The notes below the pieces were generated by a model, which saw only the letters and a program-made list of their open reading frames with translations, was not told where the DNA came from and searched no databases. The position numbers and the translations under genes are program-made. Source: Candidatus Andersenbacteria bacterium RIFCSPHIGHO2_02_FULL_46_16 (GTDB lineage: Bacteria > Patescibacteriota > Andersenbacteria > UBA10190). Taken from it: DNA of 64,000 nucleotides. The stretch is from contig MHHQ01000015.1 of the NCBI GenBank assembly GCA_001817065.1, positions 1,017-65,016 of the forward strand, in the 5' to 3' direction. This document shows, in pieces, positions 10,484-45,689 of the stretch (position 1 is the first letter of the stretch; each line of letters begins with the position of its first letter).

Positions 10484-10595
10484 ACGGGCATGGGTTGACA
10501 AAATGCTTGTGGTGTGATATATACTATACGTAGTGTTTTTAATGCTTGTTCGTTTCAATTTTGTTTCTTCGTACCTCAAGAAAGAGAGGGTCAAG

Positions 10596-11696
10596 ATGTC
10601 AGGCAAGAATTGGATTTTCGAAGTGCCGACGAACCATGGGAATGTATCGATTGCCGTCCATCCTGGGCCGCATACAGATGAGCTGCTAGCTATTATGATG
10701 ATTCAGAAAGCAGCAACGAGGCAGTTTGTGATGGATCATCAGGCAGAGACAATCGGATTGGGTGTGGAGGGTGGACCGTATGATGAACACCCGAACAACG
10801 GTAAGCCGAGAAAGGTCGGTGAATGCACGGCCACGTTAGTGGGTAAAGCGCTGGGAATTCATCAGGATCCGGTATGGGAGCGGATGCTCCGGTTCGCTTA
10901 CTGGGTAGACCAAGGTGAACCCATGCCTAGAGTGGATGACGGGGAAGGATCTTTTCCGGAGGAATGGAACCATCCCTTCGACATCAACAACTTGTTCAAG
11001 TGTCATTGGCGGCGTTTGAGCAAAGGGAAAAAGGAGGTGCCAGTAGAGAAGGGGCTTGAGTATGTGACGTGGGCGTTGGAAATTCTCGATAATTTCTGGG
11101 CACAGCAAAGGGACTTCATTGCAGCCGAGGAGGAGATTAGGAAGAATTCAGAAACGAGGACTATGATGCATAAAGGAAGACCTTTGGATGTCATGTTGAT
11201 TCGGTCTGATAACCCGGAAATCAACGCAGCAGCGCGATACTTCTTCAGGGCGGGGCTCGTGATAATTCGCCATAGCCTGGGGCATGTCCGCATTTTCCGC
11301 AACAAGCAGAACGGAGTCGGATTGGATGACCTGATGAAGCTAATTACGATCCGAGAGTGCGAATTACGGGGAGAGCCGTATACCGGGAGATGGGATGAAC
11401 TGAAGAATGAAGGAGAAGGACCGGGCGGGATCTGGTATTACTTTAGACAGCACGGAATGTTGTTGAATGGGTCTGAACAGCACGAGAAACCGTCAACGGT
11501 CATCAATGATGATGAGTTGCTGAGACTGGTAGCAACGGCGTTAGACACAGACTTGTTTCACCCGCCGTTAGAGGACACGTGTAAAAAAGGATCATGTCGT
11601 CATTCCCGAACAACGCCGTGCCCGTTGTACCAGTACGGATTGGGTCGTTGTCAGAAAGTGAGGTACGACGAAGCCAGGAACCGGATTTCTGGTTAA
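10596..11696 (+). CDS. Hypothetical protein, possible MYG1/UPF0160-like metal-dependent hydrolase (weak)
   Basis: RBS AAGAAAGAGAGGG before ATG 10596; N-terminal VHPGPHTDELLAI resembles the GTHxGxFHxDEALA motif of MYG1-family hydrolases; C-terminal Cys cluster; GC content higher than surroundings. Confidence 0.4.
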   Translation: MSGKNWIFEVPTNHGNVSIAVHPGPHTDELLAIMMIQKAATRQFVMDHQAETIGLGVEGGPYDEHPNNGKPRKVGECTATLVGKALGIHQDPVWERMLRFAYWVDQGEPMPRVDDGEGSFPEEWNHPFDINNLFKCHWRRLSKGKKEVPVEKGLEYVTWALEILDNFWAQQRDFIAAEEEIRKNSETRTMMHKGRPLDVMLIRSDNPEINAAARYFFRAGLVIIRHSLGHVRIFRNKQNGVGLDDLMKLITIRECELRGEPYTGRWDELKNEGEGPGGIWYYFRQHGMLLNGSEQHEKPSTVINDDELLRLVATALDTDLFHPPLEDTCKKGSCRHSRTTPCPLYQYGLGRCQKVRYDEARNRISG

Positions 11697-11792: not shown

Positions 11793-13526
11793 ATGTTGAA
11801 TTTAAATAAAGAAATTCGGAGCGACATTGAGGAAGGCATAAAGACAGCCATTGCAGCTGGTGCTTTGGCGTCGACGGCTGATAAGACGAACGTAGTGGTG
11901 GAAGCCTCTTCGGAAAAAGGAGGAGGAAAGCTACAAGAGGCAGAAACTCATCGGGGAGACTATGCGTCGGCGGTGGCTCTGGCGATGACTAAGCAGGTAG
12001 GAAAGCCGCCGATGGAGATTGTAAAAATAATTGCCGAGCATATGCCGAAGAAGGAATACATCGGACGGATGAAAGCGGCTGCACCTGGATATTTAAATAT
12101 TTGGCTTAATCCGGGATGGATGACAGCGCGATTAAATAATTTAATTCAGGATAACGTATGCGATACGGTTAAGGCGGGAGAGGGGAAGAGTGTTAACTTG
12201 GAGTTTATTTCTGCCAACCCGACCGGACCGCTGACTTTGGGCAACGTACGTTCGGCCTTTAGTGTGGATACTTTAGGTAAAGTGCTTGAATGTGCCGGAT
12301 TTAATGTGACGCGGGAGTATTATTTTAATGACACGGGTGCACAAGTAAAGAAACTGGGTGAGTCGGTGGTCCGAAGGGTACTGCAACAAAAGGGCGAGAC
12401 GGTTGATTATGGAGACGAGTTATATCAGGGCGATTATATTAATGAATTAGGGCGGGAAATAGCGGAGGGGCTGAAGGAAAATGAAAACAAGGAACTATTT
12501 CAAGCAGACCTAGTGGACAGCCAGATGATCGAGCGCGTGGGGGGACTTGCTGCTACGCGGCTGACGGCCGATATAAAAAAGATGATAGCGGAGGACATGA
12601 GAATTGAGTTTGATGTTTGGACGTCCGAAGATGATTTGCGGCAGAAAGGGAAAGTAGCTGCGGTGATTGAAAAACTGAAGGCAAGCGACAAAGTATATAA
12701 GAAAGATGGCGCTTGGTACTTGAAAACTACTGCTTACGGTGACAGTGAGGATCGGGTGGTGATAAAAAGTGACGGTGAGTATGCATATATCGCGCCAGAT
12801 ATTGCTTATCATCAAGATAAATACGATCGGGGATTTGATGAGATTTTTACCTTCGTCGGGGCAGACCATCAAGGGCATCTGCCAAAGGTAAAAGCGGCGA
12901 TGGAGGCATTAGGCAATGACGTGACTAAGCTACACCAAATAACTTGCCAGTGGATGAGGATGACCAAGGACGGCCAACAGGTGAAATTGTCGAAGAGATT
13001 AGGACAAATTGTGACACCCAAAGACCTGATTGACGAAGTGGGCTACGATGCGATGCGTTTTTTTATGGTTCAGCATGCGTTGAACACGCATATGGATTTT
13101 GATATTGGCATTGCCAAGGAAAGAAGTGAAAGAAATCCGGTGTATTACGTCCAATATGCCTATGTGAGATTGCAGTCAATTTTGCGGCAGGCAAAAGAGA
13201 GGGGCGTCATTAATGAAGTAGGCGAGGTGTTTGAATTATCCAATAGTCCGGCCTTAACTCACGTGCAGGAGCTGAACTTGATACGGCAACTATATCGATT
13301 GCCGGAGGTTATCGCGGGGGTAGCAGAGCGGTTTGAGGTACATGATTTGCCTTACTTTGCCATGGAGTTAGCGAAGGCCATACATGTATTTTATAAACAC
13401 GTGCCGGTATTGGCGGGAGAAAACCAGGAGTTGATTAAGAATCGATTACAGTTGGTGTTGGCTGCTCGAGAAGTAATGGGAAAGACATTGGATTTGATTG
13501 GGGTTAGCAAGCCGGATGTGATGTAG
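11793..13526 (+). CDS. argS: Arginyl-tRNA synthetase
   Basis: ANPTGPL..., DIAYHQDKYDRGFDEIFTFVGADHQGH and the C-terminal anticodon-binding region are ArgRS-typical; TATAAT at 11770 (near-leaderless); ORF track frame from 11787 (TTG). Confidence 0.9.
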   Translation: MLNLNKEIRSDIEEGIKTAIAAGALASTADKTNVVVEASSEKGGGKLQEAETHRGDYASAVALAMTKQVGKPPMEIVKIIAEHMPKKEYIGRMKAAAPGYLNIWLNPGWMTARLNNLIQDNVCDTVKAGEGKSVNLEFISANPTGPLTLGNVRSAFSVDTLGKVLECAGFNVTREYYFNDTGAQVKKLGESVVRRVLQQKGETVDYGDELYQGDYINELGREIAEGLKENENKELFQADLVDSQMIERVGGLAATRLTADIKKMIAEDMRIEFDVWTSEDDLRQKGKVAAVIEKLKASDKVYKKDGAWYLKTTAYGDSEDRVVIKSDGEYAYIAPDIAYHQDKYDRGFDEIFTFVGADHQGHLPKVKAAMEALGNDVTKLHQITCQWMRMTKDGQQVKLSKRLGQIVTPKDLIDEVGYDAMRFFMVQHALNTHMDFDIGIAKERSERNPVYYVQYAYVRLQSILRQAKERGVINEVGEVFELSNSPALTHVQELNLIRQLYRLPEVIAGVAERFEVHDLPYFAMELAKAIHVFYKHVPVLAGENQELIKNRLQLVLAAREVMGKTLDLIGVSKPDVM

Positions 13527-13994
13527 TCTGGTGGGGAATAATGAAGTCAATATACTTGTAGCTAGCGATATAAATGAGGTTTTTGTAAGTAAATTTATGA
13601 AGATAGAACAAGTTAGGCAAAGTCGTGAAACGACGAGCAGAACAAGGTGAAGCTATGCTAAGCGAGGTGAAGCCAACGATATTAGGTAATAGAGCGAAGC
13701 AAGTGGATTTCGTCTAACGTATCGCTATATCCGAAGTTCTGCGGAGCGTAGCGGAGCAAAATATGGGTGGAGGCTTTTGTATAAAAGCCGTAACCGGATA
13801 CTTGTTGTTAGCTGATGTATATGTTTTTCTCTAATTTAAGAGTTGGGCGATAGCCCAAAAAAGAAAAGGAATATTTCAGCTAACGTTTACGCATCATCTG
13901 AAGTTTTCATCCCGACTTAGCAGGATAAACTTTTTATTTCAGACTACGCTTTATTTAATTATCTCCGCCTAAATCTTCATCTAAACTAAGGGGT

Positions 13995-14065
13995 GAAAAT
14001 TTGGGTCGAGAAAAGTTTTCACTCCTTGTTAATTCTAATAATGAAAAATTTTGGAGCCAGATATG
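13995..14065. repeat. Island repeat module A (AAATTTGGG + covarying hairpin + CCAGATATG)
   Basis: Homologous to modules at 14816-14890 and 17204-17280; interrupted at its 3' end by the 172-bp GC-rich element. Confidence 0.6.
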
Positions 14066-14233
14066 GAAGTCACATTATGAAATGCCACAAATATAGTGAC
14101 GGGCCCTGTCGGCGCTGCACCCCCACCCGACGGCTTCGGCCTGCCAGGCGGGCAGCCTGCAGGCGCTCGGTGGGGGTCCCCCGCGCCGCCACCCGTTTAT
14201 TTAAGAGTGGCATTTCATAATGTGACATCTATA
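14062..14233. repeat. 172-bp GC-rich palindromic element, copy 1
   Basis: Identical except 1 nt to copies at 41665-41836 and 45464-45635; 20-bp perfect TIR gtcacattatgaaatgccac / gtggcatttcataatgtgac; ~75% GC core. Confidence 0.8.
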
Positions 14234-14274
14234 GTTGGTGTTGGGCGATGTTGGATTTCATTTTCCATTCCTTA

Positions 14275-14688
14275 TTATTGTATTTTAAATAAATCGCCGT
14301 TTAGTATAACTGGTTGCATTGCAAGAAGTTCGTCAGTATAAATCATCTCTGGAATATCATTTAATATGAAAATTGTTTTATTCAAACAGTGCGCAAAACC
14401 CATTTCCAAAAAAGAATTGCCCCCGATATAATTACGAATACCCTTTTTATCAATATTAACTATCAATACAGCATCAGCGTTTTTAATCTTCTCAAAATAA
14501 TCACGAATTAAATCATGTTCAATCTTGTTTTTGGTAGATTCGTGAGAAGATTCCTCGGCCAATACTTTTTCGGCATATTTCTTGGTGTGTTTCGGTAATA
14601 CAACTTCGTGATTATTTTGAAGCAATTCTTTTTTAGCGGCTAACATTTGAACAGCTGACGACATGCTTCCGCAAATAACAATTTTCAT
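14275..14688 (-). CDS. Nucleoside 2-deoxyribosyltransferase-like (NDT/SLOG-fold) protein
   Basis: MKIVICGSMS N-terminus and GGNSFLEMGFAHCLNKTIFILN resemble the NDT-family Gly-rich start and catalytic Glu segment. Confidence 0.5.
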   Translation of the reverse strand: MKIVICGSMSSAVQMLAAKKELLQNNHEVVLPKHTKKYAEKVLAEESSHESTKNKIEHDLIRDYFEKIKNADAVLIVNIDKKGIRNYIGGNSFLEMGFAHCLNKTIFILNDIPEMIYTDELLAMQPVILNGDLFKIQ

Positions 14689-14815
14689 ATTTTTCTGTGG
14701 CTAGGTGATTTATTTAAAATATTTTTATAAAGGGAAAATGGAAGCCAATTTCGCACAATGTTTCGGGATATCTGATGTTTCTGGCTCGATTCAATATAAA
14801 TGTAGAAAAGAGCCT

Positions 14816-14890
14816 GAAATATGGGTCGAAGAAATTTGACATACCTTATTTATTAAATGCGTCAAATTTCTGAGCTAGATATCCCGTGTT
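14816..14890. repeat. Island repeat module B
   Basis: AAATATGGGTCGAAGAAATTTGAC...GTCAAATTTCTGAGCTAGATATCCCGTGTT; hairpin stem AAATTTGAC/GTCAAATTT. Confidence 0.6.
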
Positions 14891-14938
14891 CTGCGACCCG
14901 AAGGGCTTGAGTCGCAAAAAAATTTATAATCGGCTTGG

Positions 14939-15481
14939 TCACTTCTTAATTTTAGTTTCAGGATACCTTACGATAACAGAAAAAATATCCCCTTTATCGT
15001 CCAGCTCATCAAGTCTAGTAAAAAGGTCCAAAACTATGTCATCAGTAATATCTTCTTTAAGCCGTATAATGAGCGCGCGATTGATTCCGAGTTGTTTATA
15101 TAAACTTTCCATCGCTTGAAATTTTCTCTCTTTATTTTTAACAACGGTATGCTTTCCGCTGGTTACATCCACTGCGTAGTTTTTGCCATGGAAGGTAAAC
15201 ATCATGTCAATGCCGAGCATACGATCCAATAAAATATCTTTCGGTAAATCAGATAGCTTTAGGCCTTCATCGCGCAACTTTTGCACCACCAGTTCATATC
15301 TCTGCGGAAAGCCCTGTTTGACCTGCTCTAAGATTTTTCCCTCGCCATCTTCAAGAGAGAAAATTTCAACGCCAAGATCGCGCGCGGCTTCAATCAGTTT
15401 GTGCATTCTTTGCTCTGCCAACATTGAAACTTCGTTTACATAGTTTGGGGATATTTTTTCTTGTTTTGGTGATTCAAACAT
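14939..15481 (-). CDS. Hypothetical protein (180 aa)
   Basis: ORF track; same orientation as the other island genes; no recognisable family. Confidence 0.45.
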   Translation of the reverse strand: MFESPKQEKISPNYVNEVSMLAEQRMHKLIEAARDLGVEIFSLEDGEGKILEQVKQGFPQRYELVVQKLRDEGLKLSDLPKDILLDRMLGIDMMFTFHGKNYAVDVTSGKHTVVKNKERKFQAMESLYKQLGINRALIIRLKEDITDDIVLDLFTRLDELDDKGDIFSVIVRYPETKIKK

Positions 15482-15855
15482 AGATTATAAATTTTTTGCT
15501 ATTTCCGATAAAGTCGTCGGTATATCTGAAGTTTACGACTAAAACTTTAGTTTTAGGAAGTAAATTTAAGATATACCGTGCTAGGCAAAGTCGCGAAACG
15601 ACGAGCAGAACACGGCGCAGCCGACGACTTTATGCAAAAGAGCGAAGCGATTTTGCATAACGTTTCAGAATATGCGATATTTGCCAGCGGTACAATATGC
15701 CCGAAGGGCGACCGCTGGCAAATATGGGTGTAGCGACCAGCGGGAGCGGAACCGCATATTCTGTGTTATACGCGCCGAAGGCCGAGCCAGAGTGCAACGT
15801 CCCGTAGCGAAGCGGAGGGCTGGCGAAGAGTCCGTCCCGCCCGACACTTCATCAC

Positions 15856-16350
15856 TTACTTTGTTTGCAAAAGGGCAGAAATTTTGTTTTCCAGATGGTC
15901 AATCCCGCCAAATTCTTTGACCGGAATTGATTTTATTTTGGCTCTCGTTTCAGGATTAACATGTGTAATTGTCATTTCTTCTGTTCCGCCGATACTTTCG
16001 CAATCATCTTCTATGAGTACATCTGGCATGACTCTCTCAGCTACATTTTTGTATTCTTCATCTCCGAGGCGGAATAGAAGTTGACCGTCTGGAAAATTGA
16101 ACTGTTTCAAAACCGCACGAACAGCTTCTATTTCATCTGACTTTCGACGTGATGTGAGATACAAAATTTCTGCCCCTTGGTTTTTCCACGAAGTCAATTT
16201 TTTCACTGCGCCACCGATTGGCACATATGAAGTATATTCCTTCACAGAAGGCTCTTTGGCTTTAACCTGTTGCACAATTTTCTCATGTGAATGCCCTACT
16301 GCGTTTTTGTGCATCGTTATTGTGCCTTCTGTGAATACCATGATTTTCAT
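15856..16350 (-). CDS. Hypothetical protein (about 164 aa, start MKIMVFTEGTI)
   Basis: ORF track 15856-16449; internal ATG at 16350 preferred; no recognisable family. Confidence 0.4.
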   Translation of the reverse strand: MKIMVFTEGTITMHKNAVGHSHEKIVQQVKAKEPSVKEYTSYVPIGGAVKKLTSWKNQGAEILYLTSRRKSDEIEAVRAVLKQFNFPDGQLLFRLGDEEYKNVAERVMPDVLIEDDCESIGGTEEMTITHVNPETRAKIKSIPVKEFGGIDHLENKISALLQTK

Positions 16351-16723
16351 AATAGCAGTGAAAAATTGATGTCCTTTATAAATTGTACCAATTAAGGGCG
16401 GGACGGATTGCGTATAACGTTCACCGATAAGCGAAGTTTTATTGAGCAAAGCGAAATAAAATTTGGGAAAATGCCGAGCCGAGGCATTTTCCGCTTATCG
16501 CGTTGTTAAACGACCCGAGCCCGCCTTTCCTTATTATAATATAAAATAATAAGGCGGGCAGAGCGCAGCGGGGCTTGAGTTTTGTTCAAAAATATATTCC
16601 TTATTAAATAAGCCCTTCTGAAATTTTTCGTCCGCGCTTGATTGACTTTTTGGTCACGATATGCTTAAGTGTACTATCCAGTCAACTTCGACTGGCAACG
16701 ACAATTAAAAGGAGGATAATGAT

Positions 16724-16972
16724 ATGCCATACGATCCGAGACCAGTAAGTGAGGGTGGCAACAGCGGTATCGACGAACGGTTTTCGCGAAAGGCTCCATC
16801 TGGAAAGTTCCGCGTCGTCATGGTTGACACATTTGACGGCACGGACTCTGTTGTCGGCGACTACACGCGCCGAGGCGCACAGAGGGTCGCCAAGAAAAAG
16901 GGTGGCGAAATGACCAAGATGTACGTTTACAACGACGAGGGTAAGTGCGTTGGGGAAACCGGAACTTTCTAG
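16724..16972 (+). CDS. Small hypothetical protein (82 aa), high-GC
   Basis: Perfect SD AAGGAGG 8 nt upstream of ATG; terminator hairpin 17005-17043 downstream; opposite strand to neighbouring island genes. Confidence 0.6.
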   Translation: MPYDPRPVSEGGNSGIDERFSRKAPSGKFRVVMVDTFDGTDSVVGDYTRRGAQRVAKKKGGEMTKMYVYNDEGKCVGETGTF

Positions 16973-17004
16973 TCGCAACTCATCATCAAGCCCAGTCGGC
17001 CATG

Positions 17005-17043
17005 GCCTGCTTGCATATGAATAATGTGGGCAGGTCTTTTTTT
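17005..17043 (+). terminator. Rho-independent terminator
   Basis: gcctgc...gcaggt stem followed by TTTTTTT. Confidence 0.5.
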
Positions 17044-17203
17044 GTAAAAATTTCAAAAGGGCTTAAATTTAAAATGAAAAAATATTTTTGAACAAAATTT
17101 CGTTTAACGTATCGGCATCATCTGAAGTTGCGCCCATTTTCAAAGGCTAAAACTTCAAATTTCCACCTATCATTATTATATCACCAAACTTTTATGTCAC
17201 GGC

Positions 17204-17280
17204 GCAATTTGGGAGAAGAAATTTTGCATGCCTTGATTTATAATTGTGCAAAATTTCTGAACCAGATATGCCGTGTTAGC
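17204..17280. repeat. Island repeat module C
   Basis: CAATTTGGGAGAAGAAATTTTGCA...TGCAAAATTTCTGAACCAGATATGCCGTGTT; 10-bp stem AAATTTTGCA/TGCAAAATTT. Confidence 0.6.
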
Positions 17281-17297
17281 TGATGTAAATTTAAAAA

Positions 17298-17585
17298 TTA
17301 TTTTTGAAACTTCCTTTGACAATCTATTGCAACTTTTATACATTCTTCCGGATCATACCCAAGGTCTTCACACCATCTTATCGTCGAAAATATAATATTA
17401 CCCAGTTCTTTTTTAAGTTCATCATCGGTATGCACACTTTTATCTTTTACAGCGTCACGTTCCCAGCGACAAATATCACCAAACACCTTGCCCATACGGA
17501 CAATGATTTGACTGAGGCTTAATTTCTGGTCGCCCCAAATATCGCGGCTTTGTTGCAATAGATTTTTTATTTCCATAGATTTCAA
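17298..17585 (-). CDS. MazG-like nucleotide pyrophosphohydrolase (small all-alpha NTP-PPase)
   Basis: 95 aa; ELKKELGNIIFSTIRWCEDLGYDPEECIKVAI resembles the MazG EXXE...ELGDxL...LgiD helix signature. Confidence 0.55.
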   Translation of the reverse strand: MKSMEIKNLLQQSRDIWGDQKLSLSQIIVRMGKVFGDICRWERDAVKDKSVHTDDELKKELGNIIFSTIRWCEDLGYDPEECIKVAIDCQRKFQK

Positions 17586-17673
17586 AAATAATTTTTAAAT
17601 TTATTTCAGCTAACTGGTTATTAAATGAACTTACGGATGTACTTTAGCATAATTTAGTATGTTATGCATACTT

Positions 17674-17682
17674 TTGATATAA
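17674..17682 (+). promoter_or_regulatory. Extended -10 element TGATATAAT for the recombinase gene
   Basis: TGaTATAAT lies 8 nt upstream of the GTG start at 17690, which would make the mRNA leaderless. Confidence 0.4.
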
Positions 17683-17689
17683 TAGTGAT

Positions 17690-18502
17690 GTGGAAAATGT
17701 TTTGGATAAAACCGAACGGATATTGCGATTGCGTAACTATAGTTCAAAGACTCGTAAAGCGTATTTGCTATATATAAAGGATTTTATCACGTTTTCCAAG
17801 AGAGTAGGTATTAGAAATAAACAAAAAGCAATTGAAGAGTTTTTACTTGATAAACATAAGCGAGGACAATCGCCGCAGACAATTAATCTTGCGTTGAATG
17901 CAGTGAAGTTTTTTTACCGCGAAGTATTAAAAGATCCGCAAAAAATAGATTTGAAAATGGCCAAGAGAAGTAAGAAATTGCCGGTTGTACTTTCACGCGC
18001 GGAAATTAAGAAGATTATTGATGGTACCAAGAACACAAAATATCGGTTAATGATTGCGCTGGGTTATGCCTGCGGTTTGCGAGTGAGCGAAGCGGTCAGT
18101 CTAAAAGTGCAGGATTTGGATATTGATGAATTGGTTGTCCACATAAAAAAAGGAAAGGGAAAAAAAGACAGAATTAGCGTATTACCGGAAAAATTGCAAA
18201 ACAATCTACGCAATTTAATAGCTGGTAAGAATAAAGGAGAATATGTTTTTAGTTCCAACCGTGGCGGACTCCTGACCACAACATCTTTACAAAAGATGTT
18301 TCGTCAAAGTTTGGCAAACGCGAGGATTAACAAGTTGGCAACTTTCCATTCATTGCGTCATTCTTTCGCGACGCACTTGCTGGAAAATGGCATCGATGTG
18401 CGCTACGTCCAAGAATTGCTTGGGCACGCCAATATCAGAACGACGCAAATATATACACGGGTGACAAATCCCGGGTTAAAGAAGATAAAAAGCCCGCTAT
18501 GA
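17690..18502 (+). CDS. Tyrosine site-specific recombinase (XerC/XerD-like integrase, 270 aa)
   Basis: C-terminal HSLRHSFATHLLENGIDVRYVQELLGHANIRTTQIYTRV carries the R..H..R..Y catalytic signature; N-terminal SAM-like core-binding domain; GTG start. Confidence 0.85.
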   Translation: MENVLDKTERILRLRNYSSKTRKAYLLYIKDFITFSKRVGIRNKQKAIEEFLLDKHKRGQSPQTINLALNAVKFFYREVLKDPQKIDLKMAKRSKKLPVVLSRAEIKKIIDGTKNTKYRLMIALGYACGLRVSEAVSLKVQDLDIDELVVHIKKGKGKKDRISVLPEKLQNNLRNLIAGKNKGEYVFSSNRGGLLTTTSLQKMFRQSLANARINKLATFHSLRHSFATHLLENGIDVRYVQELLGHANIRTTQIYTRVTNPGLKKIKSPL

Positions 18503-22336: not shown

Positions 22337-22530
22337 TCAATAGATAAGTCACCATCCGTAAATAACTTAACCATTTCTCGCCCACTATGCGCCAATCTAC
22401 GACTTTTCTTCAATCACGAACCACTCACCGTAGCTTGGCTACGGCTCCTGGTTCGCTCAATTGGAAAAGCCGTATCTCGACGCATATTGAACGAGATCTG
22501 GCCAAGTTATTTTTGGATGGCGCCTTAGTA

Positions 22531-22566
22531 AATAAAAACTCTACCCAGTCAAGGTAGAGTTTTTAT
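22531..22566. terminator. Bidirectional terminator between convergent ileS and the surface-protein gene
   Basis: 11-bp perfect stem aaaactctacc/ggtagagtttt preceded by an A-run and followed by a T-run. Confidence 0.6.
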
Positions 22567-22609: not shown

Positions 22610-23650
22610 TTAGATTAGGTATTTCTTGATAGAGATAGCTAATCCAAGCGAACCCATAACGATTGAGGCAACACTGGTTGCACCGGCGCCGGTGGCAGCT
22701 GTCACCGGAACTGGGATGGGTGAAGTGGGTTGGGTCGTAGTTACTGCTTTGACACCACCTGGTATAGACACGATAGTGGTGTCTGTGTCGGTGTCGGAGA
22801 GACCCTTGTTTTCACTACGGGCTTTAACGGAATTGACTAGAGATTTGCCGTCTGAGGCATCTTTATCAACTTTAACTTCGACAAAGAAGGTTAATGTTTC
22901 GCCGCCACTGATAGCGATATCAGACCAGGTAATTGTGCGGCCTTCGATGAATCCGCCGCTAGATACTCGAGTGATAGCGACTAAACTAGGAATGGTATCG
23001 GTTACTACTAGATCATCAACAGTTCCTTCCCCATCATTTTTGACAGTGATTTCGTAGGTTAGGACATGGCCGGGACGAGTGATAGCGCGATGATCCGTTT
23101 TAGTCACTGTTAAGCTAGCTGCCTTATCGTTATCGTCTTCTGGTTCAGGGGAAGGACTAGGACTGGGTGATGGAGATGGCGAGGGACTGGGTGATGGTGA
23201 AGGACTGGGACTTGGACTAGGACTGGGTGATGGAGATGGACTTGGAGACGGAGATGGTGAAGGACTGGGACTTGGACTAGGACTGGGTGATGGAGATGGA
23301 CTTGGTGATGGAGATGGTGAAGGACTTGGACTTGGAGACGGAGATGGTGAAGGACTTGGACTGGGTGATGGAGATGGCGAGGGACTTGGACTGGGTGATG
23401 GAGATGGACTAGGACTGGGTGATGGAGATGGGCTTGGAGACGGAGATGGTGAAGGACTTGGACTGGGTGATGGAGATGGGCAAGGGGAGGGGCTGGGTGA
23501 GGGAGAAGGTGTTGGAGAGTCACAGTAACATGCAGCGTCCGTGCTTTTTGGATTTATAAACGCTGATGCAGTTCCTGCTATCGCTACGATCAAAGTTATC
23601 GCAAGGAGGCGATTGATCCATTTGATTTTGTTTTGATTATCGCCGGTCAT
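22610..23650 (-). CDS. Cell-surface protein: signal peptide, long (Ser-Pro)n linker, DUF11-like conserved repeat domain, C-terminal TM anchor
   Basis: About 75 SP dipeptides; [42 protein letters not shown] is DUF11-like; C-terminal hydrophobic [12 protein letters not shown]. Confidence 0.7.
23150..23520. repeat. Tandem hexanucleotide repeat (SP codons) with nested 60-bp higher-order period
   Basis: 60-bp units at 23198-23257 and 23258-23317 are identical; ggagatgg/ggtgatgg units throughout. Confidence 0.8.
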
Positions 23651-41664: not shown

Positions 41665-41836
41665 TATGGAAGTCACATTATGAAATGCCACAAATATAGT
41701 GACGGGCCCTGTCGGCGCTGCCCCCCCACCCGACGGCTTCGGCCTGCCAGGCGGGCAGCCTGCAGGCGCTCGGTGGGGGTCCCCCGCGCCGCCACCCGTT
41801 TATTTAAGAGTGGCATTTCATAATGTGACATCTATA
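41665..41836. repeat. 172-bp GC-rich palindromic element, copy 2
   Basis: Differs from copies 1 and 3 by a single A to C change (gctgcccccccacc). Confidence 0.8.
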
Positions 41837-45463: not shown

Positions 45464-45635
45464 TATGGAAGTCACATTATGAAATGCCACAAATATAGTG
45501 ACGGGCCCTGTCGGCGCTGCACCCCCACCCGACGGCTTCGGCCTGCCAGGCGGGCAGCCTGCAGGCGCTCGGTGGGGGTCCCCCGCGCCGCCACCCGTTT
45601 ATTTAAGAGTGGCATTTCATAATGTGACATCTATA
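45464..45635. repeat. 172-bp GC-rich palindromic element, copy 3
   Basis: Identical to copy 1. Confidence 0.8.
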
Positions 45636-45689
45636 GGTCTTCTGACATGCGTCAAAGTTAGCAGAAGAAGGGGGAGGGGGCAAGAGGAA

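What the first reader, a model, noticed from the sequence alone, without database searches (positions are those of the whole stretch)
13527..18502. Integron-like cassette array: a XerC/D-sized tyrosine recombinase divergent from a row of single-gene modules separated by structured repeats
Between argS and ileS lie four small genes, all on the minus strand and all pointing away from a tyrosine recombinase gene at 17690-18502. They are an NDT-like gene (14275-14688), an unknown gene (14939-15481), a second unknown gene (15856-16350) and a MazG-like gene (17298-17585). One inverted high-GC small gene with its own RBS and terminator (16724-16972) sits among them. Every gene is followed on its 3' side by a member of one repeat family, described in the next finding. 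The stretch 13530-14060 contains several such repeats with no gene, which look like empty cassettes. The repeats conserve a short motif and a hairpin whose stem sequence differs but whose pairing is kept. Structure conserved but not sequence is the hallmark of integron attC sites. Integron-like core heptamers occur: GTTAGGC at 13613, GTTAAAC at 16518, GTTTAAC at 17101 and GTCTAAC at 13716. The recombinase is only 270 aa and shows no obvious IntI-specific insertion, so this is not a classical integron. It could be a lineage-specific recombinase-plus-cassette platform. The cargo (nucleoside deoxyribosyltransferase-like and MazG-like nucleotide enzymes plus unknowns) resembles typical chromosomal-integron or defence-island cargo.
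Basis: partly seen in the sequence, partly recalled or inferred. Interest (0 to 1): 0.85.

Follow-up and report, generated by a model that had tools for sequence, protein, structure and literature searches.

The report
Integron-like gene-cassette array in CPR bacterium
Next to a small tyrosine recombinase in this candidate-phyla-radiation (CPR) bacterium lies a row of seven swappable gene cassettes separated by hairpin-forming sites; it is built like an integron but its recombinase lacks the integron hallmark domain, and I found no description of such a system in the paper library searched.

Summary

- **What is there.** Window 13579-17630 holds seven cassettes: four minus-strand ORFs, one plus-strand ORF and two ORF-less units.
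- **The sites.** The cassettes are bounded by eight direct copies of a 12-nt arm, ATT(T/G)nnnnWAAN. The copy nearest the recombinase is a dif-like palindromic core. Each of the others starts an imperfect hairpin: an R box (TAAC/GTTA), a conserved asymmetric bulge of about 3 nt, a 9-11 bp L stem that covaries, and a loop with a conserved motif.
- **The recombinase.** It scores best against integron integrases (VchIntIA 2a3v, TIGR02249) but lacks the IntI-specific insertion.
- **Evidence for cassette exchange.**
  - In a relative whose recombinase is 80% identical, ten contigs share the recombinase and right flank. They carry six different first cassettes, all diverging exactly at AAC|T.
  - The window's 180-aa cassette, gene plus hairpin, recurs at 93% identity as the first cassette of a Microgenomates array. 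Similarity ends at the R boxes.
- **What is inferred.** Recombination of a folded single strand is not shown.
- **Limits.** The window's own population shows no cassette variation. The IntegronFinder attC model could not be run.
- **Verdict.** New variant of a known kind; interest 0.8.

The parts
17690..18502 (+). Tyrosine recombinase, 270 aa. It is IntI-like/Xer-like (the 'Cand' type of Smyshlyaev et al. 2021) and lacks the IntI-specific insertion.
   Evidence: Pfam PF00589 and PF13495. Best NCBIfam hit is TIGR02249 integron integrase, 229 bits, below the cutoff, in 2 stretches; next is XerA, 212 bits. Best PDB match is VchIntIA 2a3v at 168 bits, ahead of XerA 4a8e at 141 and XerD at 87. IntI4 residues of about 205-241 have no counterpart. 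Reading the sequence shows motifs consistent with the catalytic residues: GLRVSE (Arg), HSLRHSFATH (His-x-x-Arg), GH, IYTRV (Tyr).
17603..17630 (+). Recombinase-proximal core site (attI-like, dif-like palindrome): ATTTCAGCTAA|C TGGTTATTAAATGAAC. The inferred crossover lies within or next to AAC (17612-17614).
   Evidence: The site is conserved about 75-110 nt upstream of the recombinase start in nearly all relatives of 49% identity or more. The consensus is ATTTyGnnTAAC|TCGTTTTTATGCGAA. Six different left flanks join at exactly this AAC| in L100-L109. The same is seen for L020 versus L059.
17657..17671 (+). Second conserved arm-like motif, GTATGTTATGCATAC, between the core site and the recombinase promoter. 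Possibly an accessory or autoregulatory binding site.
   Evidence: Conserved as GTATGTTATRCRAAA in L013, L014, L015, L052, L055, L056 and L100-109. Function is inferred.
17108..17613 (-). Cassette 1: MazG-like ORF 17298-17585, plus its hairpin site. On the + strand: A 17096-17129, B 17203-17216, C 17260-17290.
   Evidence: ORF. Weak MazG hits: phrog_715 E 1e-3, NF007113 E 2e-3. A site. CGGCAT(C)ATCTG pairs with CAGATATGCCG. A 35-nt inverted repeat, 94% complementary, brackets the ORF.
16418..17107 (.). Cassette 2: 82-aa ORF 16724-16972 on the + strand, inverted relative to the others, with its own RBS and terminator. Hairpin site: A 16406-16438, B 16459-16472, C 16489-16515.
   Evidence: ORF. 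Terminator 17004-17036. CGATAAGCG pairs with CGCTTATCG. The cassette's recombinase-proximal end (17046-17108) recurs next to the core site of L056, whose recombinase is only 56% identical.
15661..16417 (-). Cassette 3: HAD/LNS2-like ORF 15856-16350. Hairpin site: A 15648-15683, B 15716-15731, C 15749-15775, followed by a GC-rich tail to 15855.
   Evidence: PF24694 E 3e-5, below the cutoff. CAGAATATGCG pairs with CGCATATTCTG, an 11-bp perfect L stem.
15512..15660 (-). Cassette 4: ORF-less 'class 2' structured unit. A 15500-15533; inner partner 15568-15590; outer stem ATAAAGTCGTCGG / CCGACGACTTTAT (15508-15520 / 15621-15633).
   Evidence: (I6, I15). The same element sits next to the core site in L016 and L055, with compensatory changes in the outer stem.
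14759..15511 (-). Cassette 5: unknown 180-aa ORF 14939-15481. Hairpin site: A 14747-14779, B 14813-14828, C 14873-14897.
   Evidence: CGGGATATCT pairs with AGATATCCCG. The whole cassette is 93% identical to the first cassette of the Microgenomates array in L110. Similarity stops at the R boxes, and the L stem carries a compensatory change.
13884..14758 (-). Cassette 6: NDT-like ORF 14275-14688. Hairpin site: A 13872-13905, B 13993-14008, and a C that is split (14050-14061 / 14235-14262) by the MITE-like insert.
   Evidence: PF05014 E 1e-4, below the cutoff. A site. MITE boundaries.
14062..14234 (.). 173-nt GC-rich MITE-like palindromic element inserted into the C half of cassette 6's site. It is not part of the array proper.
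   Evidence: Two further copies at 41665-41836 (99.4%) and 45464-45636 (100%). Terminal inverted repeats (I1). Flanks.
13718..13883 (-). Cassette 7: ORF-less. Hairpin site: A 13706-13738, B 13755-13770, C 13790-13822.
   Evidence: A site. GTTAGCT R box at 13807-13813. Its L stem is weaker: TATCCG pairs with CGGATA.
13579..13717 (-). Terminal remnant of a class-2 unit, homologous to 15550-15648. This is the distal end of the array, 53 nt after the argS stop codon.
   Evidence: Direct repeats D3, D6 and D11. Alignment A2.

Best explanation
This is a site-specific-recombination cassette platform that works like a chromosomal integron. Its recombinase comes from a Xer/IntI-related clade that lacks the IntI extra domain.

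**Layout.**
- The recombinase gene (17690-18502) sits beside its own core site (17603-17630). That site is a dif-like palindrome: left arm ATTTyGnnTAA, a centre of about 7-8 nt, right arm TTATGCGAAAT.
- Cassettes are inserted at the AAC of that site. They accumulate as a one-directional row pointing away from the recombinase.
- Each cassette is a segment from one AAC to the next. It carries at most one small ORF plus one imperfect hairpin site.

**The hairpin site**, read on the window's + strand (the non-coding strand of the cassette genes):
1. left arm plus TAAC (R box);
2. a spacer of about 4 nt;
3. a 9-11 nt L box of free sequence;
4. a loop carrying the conserved motif GCAAAWWTGGGTG and a small GC hairpin;
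5. the complementary L box;
6. a 1-nt spacer;
7. GTTAnnn (R box).

**Shown.**
- The anatomy.
- The covariation.
- The fixed orientation of all sites.
- The link between sites and recombinase across many genomes.
- Cassette replacement in relatives, and relocation of one of the window's own cassettes, with breakpoints at the AAC/GTT of the R box.

**Inferred.**
- One strand folds. The R and L stems then imitate the two arms of the duplex core site, and the roughly 3 extra bases are extrahelical.
- The recombinase exchanges one strand at TAA|C with the core site or with another hairpin.
- Replication resolves the junction, as in attC x attI recombination and CTX-phage integration.

In the window's own population the array is fixed.
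For: **1. Sites.**
- Eight direct left arms, ATT(T/G)nnnnWAAN.
- The A-box HMM hits only inside the array within the 64 kb.
- In 8 other species or loci the hits lie only upstream of related recombinases, in the same orientation.

**2. Hairpin.**
- 12 of 18 sequence-defined A sites have a perfect downstream complement of at least 9 nt, each with p <= 0.02. None of the 18 has an upstream match of 9 nt or more.
- The L stem is 98% paired, with 9 of 11 pairs compensatory. AAC/GTT is nearly invariant (one U-G in 30 cells). Slid controls give 22-51%.
- The A-side spacer is 3-6 nt and the C-side spacer 0-2 nt in the family-like units (L stem 9-11 bp, family flanks) from CPR and DPANN loci.

**3. Breakpoints.**
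- L100-L109 share an identical recombinase, 75 nt of upstream sequence and the right flank. Their six different left flanks all diverge at (T/C)AAC|TGG.
- L054 and L055 are 99.6% identical to the right of the AAC of an A site and unrelated to its left.
- L055 contains a 67-nt duplication that ends at TAAC, once at the core site and once at an A site.
- L020 versus L059.
- The left side of L056's core site matches window 17046-17108.

**4. A window cassette moves.** The 180-aa gene plus its hairpin is 93% identical as cassette 1 of a Microgenomates array. That array has at least 9 single-gene cassettes and a truncated recombinase remnant. Similarity ends at the R boxes.

**5. Recombinase.**
- IntI4 (2a3v) and TIGR02249 are the best matches, ahead of XerA and far ahead of XerD.
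- The family has 7402 homologues, the top 120 at 76-82% identity (bar the self-match) across CPR classes. Very many sit on contigs of 1-2 kb, which indicates variable flanks. For P0037, 58 of 124 blocks have a longest contig under 2 kb.

**6. Not a chromosomal terminus site.** GC skew is +0.28 to the left and +0.30 to the right of the locus.

**7. Hint of single-strand folding.** The stable DNA mini-hairpin motif GCGNAGC occurs at 4.0 per kb in the array's intergenic DNA, against 0.25 per kb elsewhere. This is suggestive only.
Against: - The recombinase lacks the domain that, in IntI, contacts the extrahelical bases of attC. Hairpin recognition would therefore need another solution.
- There is no direct evidence for single-strand folding or for circular cassettes.
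- Whole-unit folding energies beat shuffles clearly in only 1 of 4 units tested: z = -3.65, against -0.97, -1.58 and -0.73.
- More than 25 contigs of the window's own species are collinear. They show no cassette gain or loss.
- In L016 the partner of A8515 lies about 400 nt away, across an 89-aa gene. That is an awkwardly large loop.
- The only alternative junction seen for the window's array (L001, at 16459) lies between the L box and the loop motif, not in the R box. It joins DNA of 31-34% GC, so it is probably a chimeric assembly.
- The IntegronFinder attC covariance model could not be run.
- Units used were partly chosen for their complementarity.
Confidence: 0.75

Rival explanations
1. 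The recombinase is simply the housekeeping Xer of CPR bacteria and the adjacent palindrome is its dif site. The row of genes is a pile-up of small elements that exploit Xer (IMEX-like, or like Acinetobacter pdif modules). These integrate as duplex DNA, and the A/C inverted repeats are duplex half-sites rather than folded hairpins.
For: - The core site has dif architecture and even dif-like inner arm sequence (CGCATAA ... TTATGCG).
- Smyshlyaev et al. 2021 class the 'Cand' recombinases of candidate phyla as Xer-related and presume that they substitute for Xer.
- The enzyme lacks the IntI domain.
- Both A and rc(C) resemble the core site in both arms.
Against: - The locus is not at a GC-skew switch in the window, L034, L013, L058 or L022.
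- The spacing between arms differs: about 8 nt in the core site, 10 nt in A and 7 nt in rc(C). A and C are therefore poor duplex partners. The 3-nt asymmetry is nonetheless conserved across phyla, which is easier to explain for a folded site.
- All five breakpoints seen at an arm fall in the AAC of A-type or core sites, and none in C sites.
- IntI scores above every Xer.

This rival overlaps with the best explanation. It differs mainly in whether the substrate is duplex or folded, and in whether the enzyme also resolves chromosome dimers.
Confidence: 0.15
2. The A/C pairs are inverted repeats flanking invertible DNA switches (invertons or a shufflon) operated by the adjacent recombinase. Matched L boxes would then reflect the need for identical crossover regions, not hairpin folding. 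The loop motif B would be a promoter flipped on or off for each gene.
For: - Each intergenic segment is flanked by inverted repeats of about 30 nt with a pair-specific matched core.
- One gene (82 aa) is inverted and bracketed by inverted repeats (I10, I13).
- In L016 a gene lies between A and its partner C.
Against: - No inverted orientation of any segment appears in more than 40 contigs from many samples.
- A and rc(C) differ by a conserved 3-nt indel in the would-be crossover region. That is incompatible with classical inversion.
- The variation actually observed is replacement and relocation of whole cassettes at A sites, not inversion.
- The promoter scan is not enriched over shuffles.
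Confidence: 0.04
3. The repeats are ordinary intergenic structures, such as REP-like elements, terminators or a small RNA family, that happen to sit in a gene-poor accessory island. The recombinase is an unrelated neighbour.
For: - One hairpin plus the rc(B) motif matches a terminator-like pattern (16466-16492, minus strand).
- The repeats lie 3' of genes.
Against: - There are no copies elsewhere in the 64 kb.
- There is no Rfam match.
- Terminator-like sites are not enriched: 4 found against 4.2 expected.
- The same units occur upstream of related recombinases in at least 8 other genomes, always in one orientation.
- Sequence breakpoints between strains fall exactly in the repeats' conserved AAC.
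Confidence: 0.03

Closest known systems
Sedentary chromosomal integrons (IntI + attI + attC cassette arrays, e.g. the Vibrio cholerae superintegron with VchIntIA)
   Same: - A divergently oriented tyrosine recombinase sits beside an insertion site.
- There is a one-directional row of mostly single-ORF and ORF-less cassettes.
- Each cassette ends in an imperfect palindrome with conserved outer boxes (nnnTAAC / GTTAnnn, compare RYYYAAC / GTTRRRY), an asymmetric unpaired spacer, an inner stem that is conserved in pairing but not in sequence, and a variable loop.
- Site lengths of about 98-177 nt are comparable.
- Cassette boundaries fall at the GTT/AAC triplet.
- The first cassette varies between strains.
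- Cargo is small enzymes (methyltransferases, GNAT, isochorismatase, NUDIX, MazG-like) and unknowns.
- IntI is the recombinase's best-scoring characterised relative.
   Different: - The recombinase is 270 aa and lacks the IntI-specific additional domain, which is required for IntI activity according to Messier & Roy 2001, as cited in PMC9668308.
- The insertion site is a near-palindromic dif-like core.
- The extra bases lie on the arm next to the inferred cleavage point.
- The loops carry a conserved sequence motif (GCAAAWWTGGGTG).
- L stems are longer (9-11 bp).
- The hosts are CPR bacteria, with related units in DPANN-labelled MAGs.
- IntegronFinder requires the IntI C-terminal profile to call an integrase. 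My inference is that it would at best call these arrays CALINs.
CTX-phage-type IMEX integration by XerCD at dif (single-stranded hairpin attP)
   Same: - A Xer-type enzyme acts without an extra domain.
- The target is a dif-like duplex site.
- The incoming site consists of two inverted dif-like halves, tens of nucleotides apart, that could fold into a duplex-like site with an imperfect centre.
- Single-strand exchange followed by replication is the model proposed here.
- Tandem accumulation occurs at the site.
   Different: - The units here are not phages. They are single-gene or empty cassettes.
- There are many different units in one ordered array.
- The site is not at the replication terminus.
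- There is one recombinase gene adjacent to the site, rather than a XerC + XerD pair.
Single-recombinase Xer systems with a nearby site (XerS/difSL, XerH/difH, archaeal XerA/dif) and the 'Cand' subgroup of Smyshlyaev et al. 2021
   Same: - Size and domain layout (SAM-like N-terminal domain plus catalytic domain).
- A palindromic core with ATAA...TTAT inner arms.
- For XerS, the gene lies beside its site.
- CPR recombinases were already grouped as Xer-related.
   Different: - There is no GC-skew switch at the locus.
- The site is reused as a boundary of multiple cassettes.
- Hairpin partner sites are present.
- No cassette array is described for the Cand subgroup in the passages of PMC8138268 retrieved by a term search (the paper was not read in full).
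Acinetobacter pdif modules
   Same: Discrete gene modules are bounded by Xer-type sites, with inverted copies flanking each gene.
   Different: - In pdif modules the sites are complete 28-bp XerC/XerD duplex sites that alternate in orientation on plasmids.
- Here the crossover-bearing sites are all direct.
- Their inverted partners differ by a conserved 3-nt indel and covary as stems.

Membership tests
Integron (sensu IntegronFinder / Mazel) | Integrase is a tyrosine recombinase carrying the IntI-specific additional domain around patch III. | tested here: not met
   The alignment to VchIntIA (2a3v) skips residues of about 205-241. TIGR02249 matches in two stretches at 229 bits, below the 265 cutoff. 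PRK15417 scores 149 bits against a cutoff of 435.
Integron (sensu IntegronFinder / Mazel) | attC sites are imperfect inverted repeats, R''-L''...L'-R', with conserved RYYYAAC/GTTRRRY. Structure is conserved and sequence is not. Extrahelical or unpaired bases are present. | tested here: met
   - The R box nnnTAAC/GTTAnnn has a nearly invariant AAC/GTT (one U-G in 30 cells).
- The L stem is 98% paired, with 9 of 11 pairs compensatory.
- Non-circular test.
- Conserved 3-nt spacer asymmetry.
- R boxes fit RYYYAAC only loosely.
Integron (sensu IntegronFinder / Mazel) | Sites are recognised by the attC covariance model. | not testable with these tools
   The IntegronFinder model is not available here. 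No Rfam 15 family, of any kind, matched the region.
Integron (sensu IntegronFinder / Mazel) | attI lies next to intI, and cassettes are inserted at G|TT. | tested here: met
   The conserved site lies 75-110 nt upstream of the recombinase. Six alternative first cassettes join at AAC|T, which is G|TT on the gene strand.
Integron (sensu IntegronFinder / Mazel) | Cassettes are discrete mobile units (ORF + attC) that differ between strains and recur in other arrays. | tested here: met
   Not met within the window's own species, which is invariant.
Integron (sensu IntegronFinder / Mazel) | The folded bottom strand of attC is recombined, with replicative resolution. | not testable with these tools
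   Inference only.
Integron (sensu IntegronFinder / Mazel) | A Pc promoter at the integrase or attI end drives the cassettes. | tested here: inconclusive
   The consensus scan gives no enrichment and no convincing leftward promoter at 17586-17689. Several cassettes have TATAAT-like boxes just upstream of their start codons, by inspection.
Xer/dif chromosome-dimer resolution | The recombinase belongs to the Xer clade. | tested here: inconclusive
   XerA_Arch scores 212 bits (cutoff 220). XerC scores 187 and XerD 185, against cutoffs of about 330. CPR recombinases are classed as the Xer-related 'Cand' subgroup in PMC8138268.
Xer/dif chromosome-dimer resolution | The site is a palindromic core of about 28-31 bp: two 11-bp arms around a centre of 6-8 bp. 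| tested here: met
   By inspection of 20 aligned upstream regions: ATTTyGnnTAA - CTCGTTT - TTATGCGAAAT.
Xer/dif chromosome-dimer resolution | The site lies at the replication terminus, where GC skew changes sign from + to -. | tested here: not met
   Skew is +0.28 to the left and +0.30 to the right in the window. There is no + to - switch in any of 10 related loci.
Invertible-promoter / shufflon systems | Both orientations of the segment between the inverted repeats are found in a population. | tested here: not met
   All contigs of the window species and of the P0037 species are collinear for these segments. This is assembly-level evidence only.

The most novel reading that the evidence does not exclude
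A 'proto-integron' may be widespread in CPR bacteria, with related units in DPANN archaea.
- A Xer-clade recombinase without the IntI domain would capture and shuffle single-gene cassettes through folded hairpin sites at a dif-like core.
- It would represent the missing link between Xer/dif-IMEX recombination and classical integrons.
- It could be a major gene-exchange route in these reduced-genome episymbionts.
- IntegronFinder-type searches would miss it, because they require the IntI-specific domain.
Probability: 0.4. Interest if true: 0.92.

Novelty: new variant of a known kind. Interest (0 to 1): 0.8.

Why it matters
- **Horizontal transfer in CPR.** To my knowledge (background, not tested here), CPR/Patescibacteria have tiny genomes and few recognised mobile elements. 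How they acquire accessory genes is poorly understood.
- **Scale.** The recombinase family is very large: 7402 homologues, with the top hits at about 80% identity across several CPR classes. A cassette platform tied to it would be a general mechanism for horizontal transfer. That transfer crosses class boundaries: one cassette is 93% identical between this genome and a Microgenomates MAG.
- **Evolution of integrons.** The system combines an IntI-like enzyme without the extra domain, a dif-like insertion site and attC-like hairpins. This makes the long-standing idea that integrons arose from Xer/dif-type systems directly testable.
- **Annotation.** Arrays now annotated as 'XerD' plus hypothetical genes, or as attC clusters lacking an integrase, may belong to this class.

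Tried and rejected
1. **L004 'indels'.** The apparent indels in L004 (GCA_003501005.1) relative to the window are runs of N, i.e. scaffold gaps.
2. **L001.**
   - It looked like a strain with different cassettes to the left of 16459.
   - Its left part is 31-34% GC, against about 45% for the window genome, and carries core genes (ThyX, Tmk, RNR).
   - It is therefore probably a chimeric assembly, or another organism sharing part of cassette 2.
   - It was not used as evidence. Its junction, between the L box and motif B, remains unexplained.
3. **ArgS-side contig breaks.** They are explained by the multi-copy MITE, not by array variability.
4. **Rfam.** Both gathering and E-value modes gave nothing relevant.
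5. **Promoter/terminator scan.** Not enriched over shuffles.
6. **Cargo annotation.** PADLOC, PHROGs and NCBIfam gave only weak hits, and there is no defence-system assignment.
7. **MFE folding of whole units.** Ambiguous, with z scores from -0.7 to -3.7. Targeted pairing and covariation tests were more informative.
8. **Short single motifs.** GTTAGCTGA and AAATATGGGT alone are not significantly enriched in the window. The longer A-box profile is.
9. **L013 and L014.**
   - These are orthologous loci with recombinases 55-59% identical.
   - They show the core site but tightly packed ordinary genes upstream, with no array in L013 and only two isolated A/C units in L014 (one about 8 kb and one about 1.6 kb upstream).
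   - Arrays are therefore not universal.
10. **Literature.** Searches for integrons or attC in CPR/Patescibacteria found nothing relevant.

Full report
**1. What is in the window**

Between argS (11793-13526, +) and a GT4-like gene followed by ileS (18590 onward, +), GC skew collapses from about +0.28 to about 0 and GC content drops.

The interval holds six ORFs:
- NDT-like, 14275-14688 (-).
- Unknown 180 aa, 14939-15481 (-).
- HAD/LNS2-like, 15856-16350 (-).
- 82 aa, 16724-16972 (+), with its own RBS and terminator.
- MazG-like, 17298-17585 (-).
- A 270-aa tyrosine recombinase, 17690-18502 (+).

Family assignments for the cargo are weak and fall below curated cutoffs. PADLOC gives no defence-system assignment. 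The organism is a Patescibacteria/CPR bacterium. Identical sequence occurs in Rifle aquifer assemblies and in MAGs GCA_001817145.1, GCA_003501005.1 and GCA_001001305.1.

**2. The repeat family**

Read on the + strand, each inter-gene region has the order A - variable - B - small hairpin - C.
- **A** is about 34 nt: ATT(T/G)yGnnTAAC-GTTT-(L box)-AAGTT.
- **B** is GCAAAWWTGGGTG.
- **C** is the L-box complement, then T, then GTTAnnn.

An HMM of A finds seven copies, all on the + strand between 13706 and 17129. Nothing else in the 64 kb scores better than E 0.99. An eighth copy of the left arm, at 17603-17614, belongs to the recombinase-proximal site.

A pairs with C. For example:
- CAGAATATGCG (15666) pairs with CGCATATTCTG (15753).
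- CGATAAGCG (16425) pairs with CGCTTATCG (16493).
- CGGGATATCT (14764) pairs with AGATATCCCG (14877).

On the gene (minus) strand the order is: gene - nnnTAAC-type box - L'' - loop - L' - GTTAnnn - next gene. That is attC geometry.

There are also two ORF-less units (13718-13883 and 15512-15660) and a terminal remnant (13579-13717). A separate 173-nt MITE-like element (14062-14234) has two more copies in the window and has inserted into the C half of one unit.

**3. Is the pairing more than chance?**

- **Non-circular test.** A sites were taken by sequence similarity alone, 18 sites in 7 loci. Twelve have a perfect reverse complement of at least 9 nt of their spacer/L region within 480 nt downstream (shuffle p <= 0.02 each). 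The same-size upstream control gives a maximum of 5-8 nt.
- **Pair counts.** Ten units from seven loci were aligned.
  - The L helix is 98% paired, and 9 of 11 pairs show changes on both sides.
  - The R helix is 83% paired, with a nearly invariant AAC/GTT (one U-G in 30 cells).
  - Sliding the partner by 1-3 columns drops pairing to 22-51%.
- **Asymmetry.** A purely structural search finds the same architecture in further loci, including DPANN-labelled ones (L026 from a Nanoarchaeota MAG, L062, L079).
  - The spacer is 3-6 nt on the A side and 0-2 nt on the C side.
  - This roughly 3-nt asymmetry is present in the family-like units (L stem 9-11 bp, with the family's flanks).
- **Caveat.** Minimum-free-energy folding of whole units is not impressive.

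**4. The recombinase and its site**

- The best NCBIfam model is integron integrase TIGR02249. It scores 229 bits, below the 265 cutoff, and matches in two pieces. Next come XerA (212), XerC (187) and XerD (185).
- The closest solved structure is VchIntIA (2a3v, 168 bits), ahead of archaeal XerA (141) and XerD (87). The alignment omits IntI4 residues of about 205-241, which form the IntI-specific domain. The C-terminal ...SPL is shared.
- Motifs consistent with the catalytic residues are visible in the sequence.
- About 75-110 nt upstream of the start codon, nearly all relatives of 49% identity or more carry ATTTyGnnTAAC|TCGTTTTTATGCGAA. A further arm-like repeat lies nearer the promoter.
- By inspection this is a dif-like palindrome (compare E. 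coli dif, GGTGCGCATAA-TGTATA-TTATGTTAAAT, from my own knowledge).
- The locus is not at a skew switch. Skew is +0.28/+0.30 in the window, and none of ten related loci shows a + to - switch.
- The family is very large: 7402 hits, with the top 120 at 76-82% identity (bar the self-match) and 266-281 aa (mostly 270), from Vogel-, Kerfeld-, Moranii-, Pacei- and Spechtbacteria. It is very often found on contigs of 1-2 kb, which indicates variable flanks.

**5. Evidence that cassettes move, and where the crossover is**

(a) *P0037.* This recombinase is 80% identical to the window's. Ten contigs share the recombinase, the 75 nt upstream of it and a right flank of at least 7 kb. To the left they carry six different first genes: two kinds of methyltransferase, a creatininase, a PNP_UDP protein and two unknowns (one 445 aa, one truncated at the contig end). 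All diverge exactly to the left of (T/C)AAC|TGGTTTTTATC. The same A-B-C units separate their cassettes.

(b) *L054 and L055.* They are 99.6% identical over 4.1 kb to the right of the AAC of an A site and unrelated to its left.

(c) *L055.* It contains a 67-nt duplication ending at TAAC. One copy is followed by the core-site right half and the other by an A-type right half.

(d) *L020 and L059.* They differ only to the left of the core-site AAC.

(e) *L056.* The left side of its core site matches window 17046-17108, the proximal end of cassette 2. Its recombinase is only 56% identical.

(f) *The window's cassette 5.* The 180-aa gene plus its hairpin recurs at 93% identity as the first cassette of an array in a Microgenomates MAG (L110).
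- That array has at least 9 single-gene cassettes (RidA, methyltransferase, isochorismatase, MtlR, Bro-N, GNAT and others), six co-oriented A sites and a truncated recombinase remnant.
- Similarity ends at the R boxes on both sides.
- The L stem carries a compensatory change, CGGGATATCT/AGATATCCCG to CGGTATATCT/AGATATACCG.

All five breakpoints seen at an arm lie in the AAC of A-type or core sites, which is G|TT on the gene strand, as in integrons. The exception is the L001 junction in section 8, which probably reflects a chimeric assembly.

**6. Mechanism**

*Shown:* a recombinase-linked, one-directional array of discrete units bounded at a conserved triplet, with hairpin-capable sites under selection for pairing.

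*Inferred:*
- The + strand folds. It is the non-coding strand of the cassette genes and, given the positive GC skew, probably the lagging-strand template.
- The R stem mimics the left arm of the core site and the L stem mimics the right arm.
- The C-side spacing (TAA + 7 nt + TATGCG) approximates the core-site spacing (TAA + 8 nt). The three extra A-side bases are extrahelical and could mark the reactive strand.
- One strand is exchanged at TAA|C and replication resolves the junction, as for attC x attI recombination and CTX-phage integration.

The 16-fold enrichment of the GCGNAGC motif in the array's intergenic DNA is suggestive of single-strand folding only. This motif is known to me as an exceptionally stable DNA mini-hairpin.

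The role of motif B, which is conserved in sequence across species inside the loops, is unexplained.

**7. Rivals**

- **Duplex IMEX/pdif-like system run by a housekeeping Xer.** This cannot be excluded. It is disfavoured by the non-terminus position, by the unequal arm spacing of A, C and the core site together with the conserved asymmetry, and by breakpoints being seen only at A and core sites.
- **Inverton/shufflon.** This is contradicted by the absence of any inverted segment in more than 40 contigs and by the 3-nt indel between partners.
- **REP, terminator or RNA explanations.** These fail on distribution, on the link to the recombinase and on the breakpoints.

**8. Limits**

- The window's own species shows a fixed array. 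The only differences are small deletions, such as 17463-17580 in L010, L090 and L099.
- L001 is probably chimeric.
- Some relatives (L013, L014) have the core site but no cassette array next to it (L013 has none; L014 has only two isolated A/C units upstream).
- In L016 one A/C pair spans a gene.
- The attC covariance model could not be run.

**9. Novelty**

- The held literature describes integrons in Bacteria and Archaea only with IntI carrying the extra domain (PMC9668308).
- CPR is not mentioned in the IntegronFinder 2.0 survey (PMC9024848).
- CPR recombinases are classed merely as the Xer-related 'Cand' subgroup (PMC8138268).
- Four further searches found no description of CPR cassette arrays.

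I therefore rate this a new variant of a known kind. It fails the membership test for 'integron' on the integrase domain, but it works like one by every structural and comparative criterion that could be tested.

Noticed in passing
window 14062-14234, 41665-41836, 45464-45636: A 173-nt, 59% GC palindromic MITE-like element is present in three near-identical copies.
- Its terminal inverted repeat is GTCACATTATGAAATGCCAC.
- Two of the three copies sit immediately after an AAC.
- Its inverted repeats resemble the recombinase arm motif (ATTTCATAATG), so it might be an ORF-less hairpin unit that spreads to secondary sites.
   Followed up: partly
window 23151-23504: A tandem repeat array with a 60-nt period (30/18/24-nt sub-periods) and GGAGATGGA/GGACTTGGA-type units. 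Its copy number differs between contigs of the same species: L003, L005, L006, L007 and L009 align with shifts here.
   Followed up: partly
window 17463-17580; 14159-14277; 22444-22550: Deletions of about 107-119 nt relative to the window appear in independent assemblies: L010 and L099 (Logan) and L090 (GCA_001001305.1). The first deletion removes the 5' third of the MazG-like gene. All are of similar length, and the cause is unknown.
   Followed up: partly
L001 1-8770 (ena:ERZ27254754:k141_696887) joined to window 16459 onward: The contig joins 31-34% GC DNA to the window genome inside the loop of cassette 2's hairpin.
- The low-GC part carries RNR, NrdR, dCMP deaminase, Tmk, ThyX, a 103-aa ORF and an APH-family gene, with its own A/B/C-like repeats.
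- It is either a chimeric assembly through a shared cassette segment or a real hybrid.
- The junction is not at the R box.
   Followed up: partly
loops of all units, e.g. window 13755-13770, 14813-14828, 15716-15731, 16459-16472; L016 8075; L100 2200: Motif B (GCAAAWWTGGGTG), usually followed by a small GC hairpin (GGGGCGAGCCGAGCCCC in L016 and L100), is conserved in sequence across species inside otherwise variable loops. Its function is unknown. It could be an accessory-protein site, a terminator part or a promoter.
   Followed up: no
window array intergenic DNA (13527-17689 minus ORFs): GCGNAGC (GCGAAGC, GCGTAGC, GCGCAGC) occurs 8 times in 2.0 kb, against 15 times in the other 59 kb. CCCGAAGGG-type mini-hairpins are also frequent.
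   Followed up: partly
window 13933-13964: A degenerate copy of the recombinase-proximal core site, 72% identical to 17600-17631, lies inside the loop of cassette 6's hairpin (D9).
   Followed up: no
L025, L026, L062, L063, L068, L070, L074 (upstream of recombinases 37-43% identical): DPANN-type relatives carry their own conserved site, (T)AAC|ATCTATTAnATCTACTTGAAAAGTAGATTTAAT, upstream of a TATA-like box. L062 has three tandem ORF-less hairpin units within 500 nt. This suggests the system crosses the bacteria/archaea boundary.
   Followed up: partly
L034 9910-10312; L110 5741-5890: In two arrays the adjacent recombinase gene is degraded. L034 has N-terminal fragments and an internal deletion, and L110 has a 49-aa remnant. 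These are arrays without a working integrase, the equivalent of CALINs.
   Followed up: no
window 10533-11696: A 387-aa ORF upstream of argS has no Pfam hit. It is conserved in all contigs of the species.
   Followed up: no
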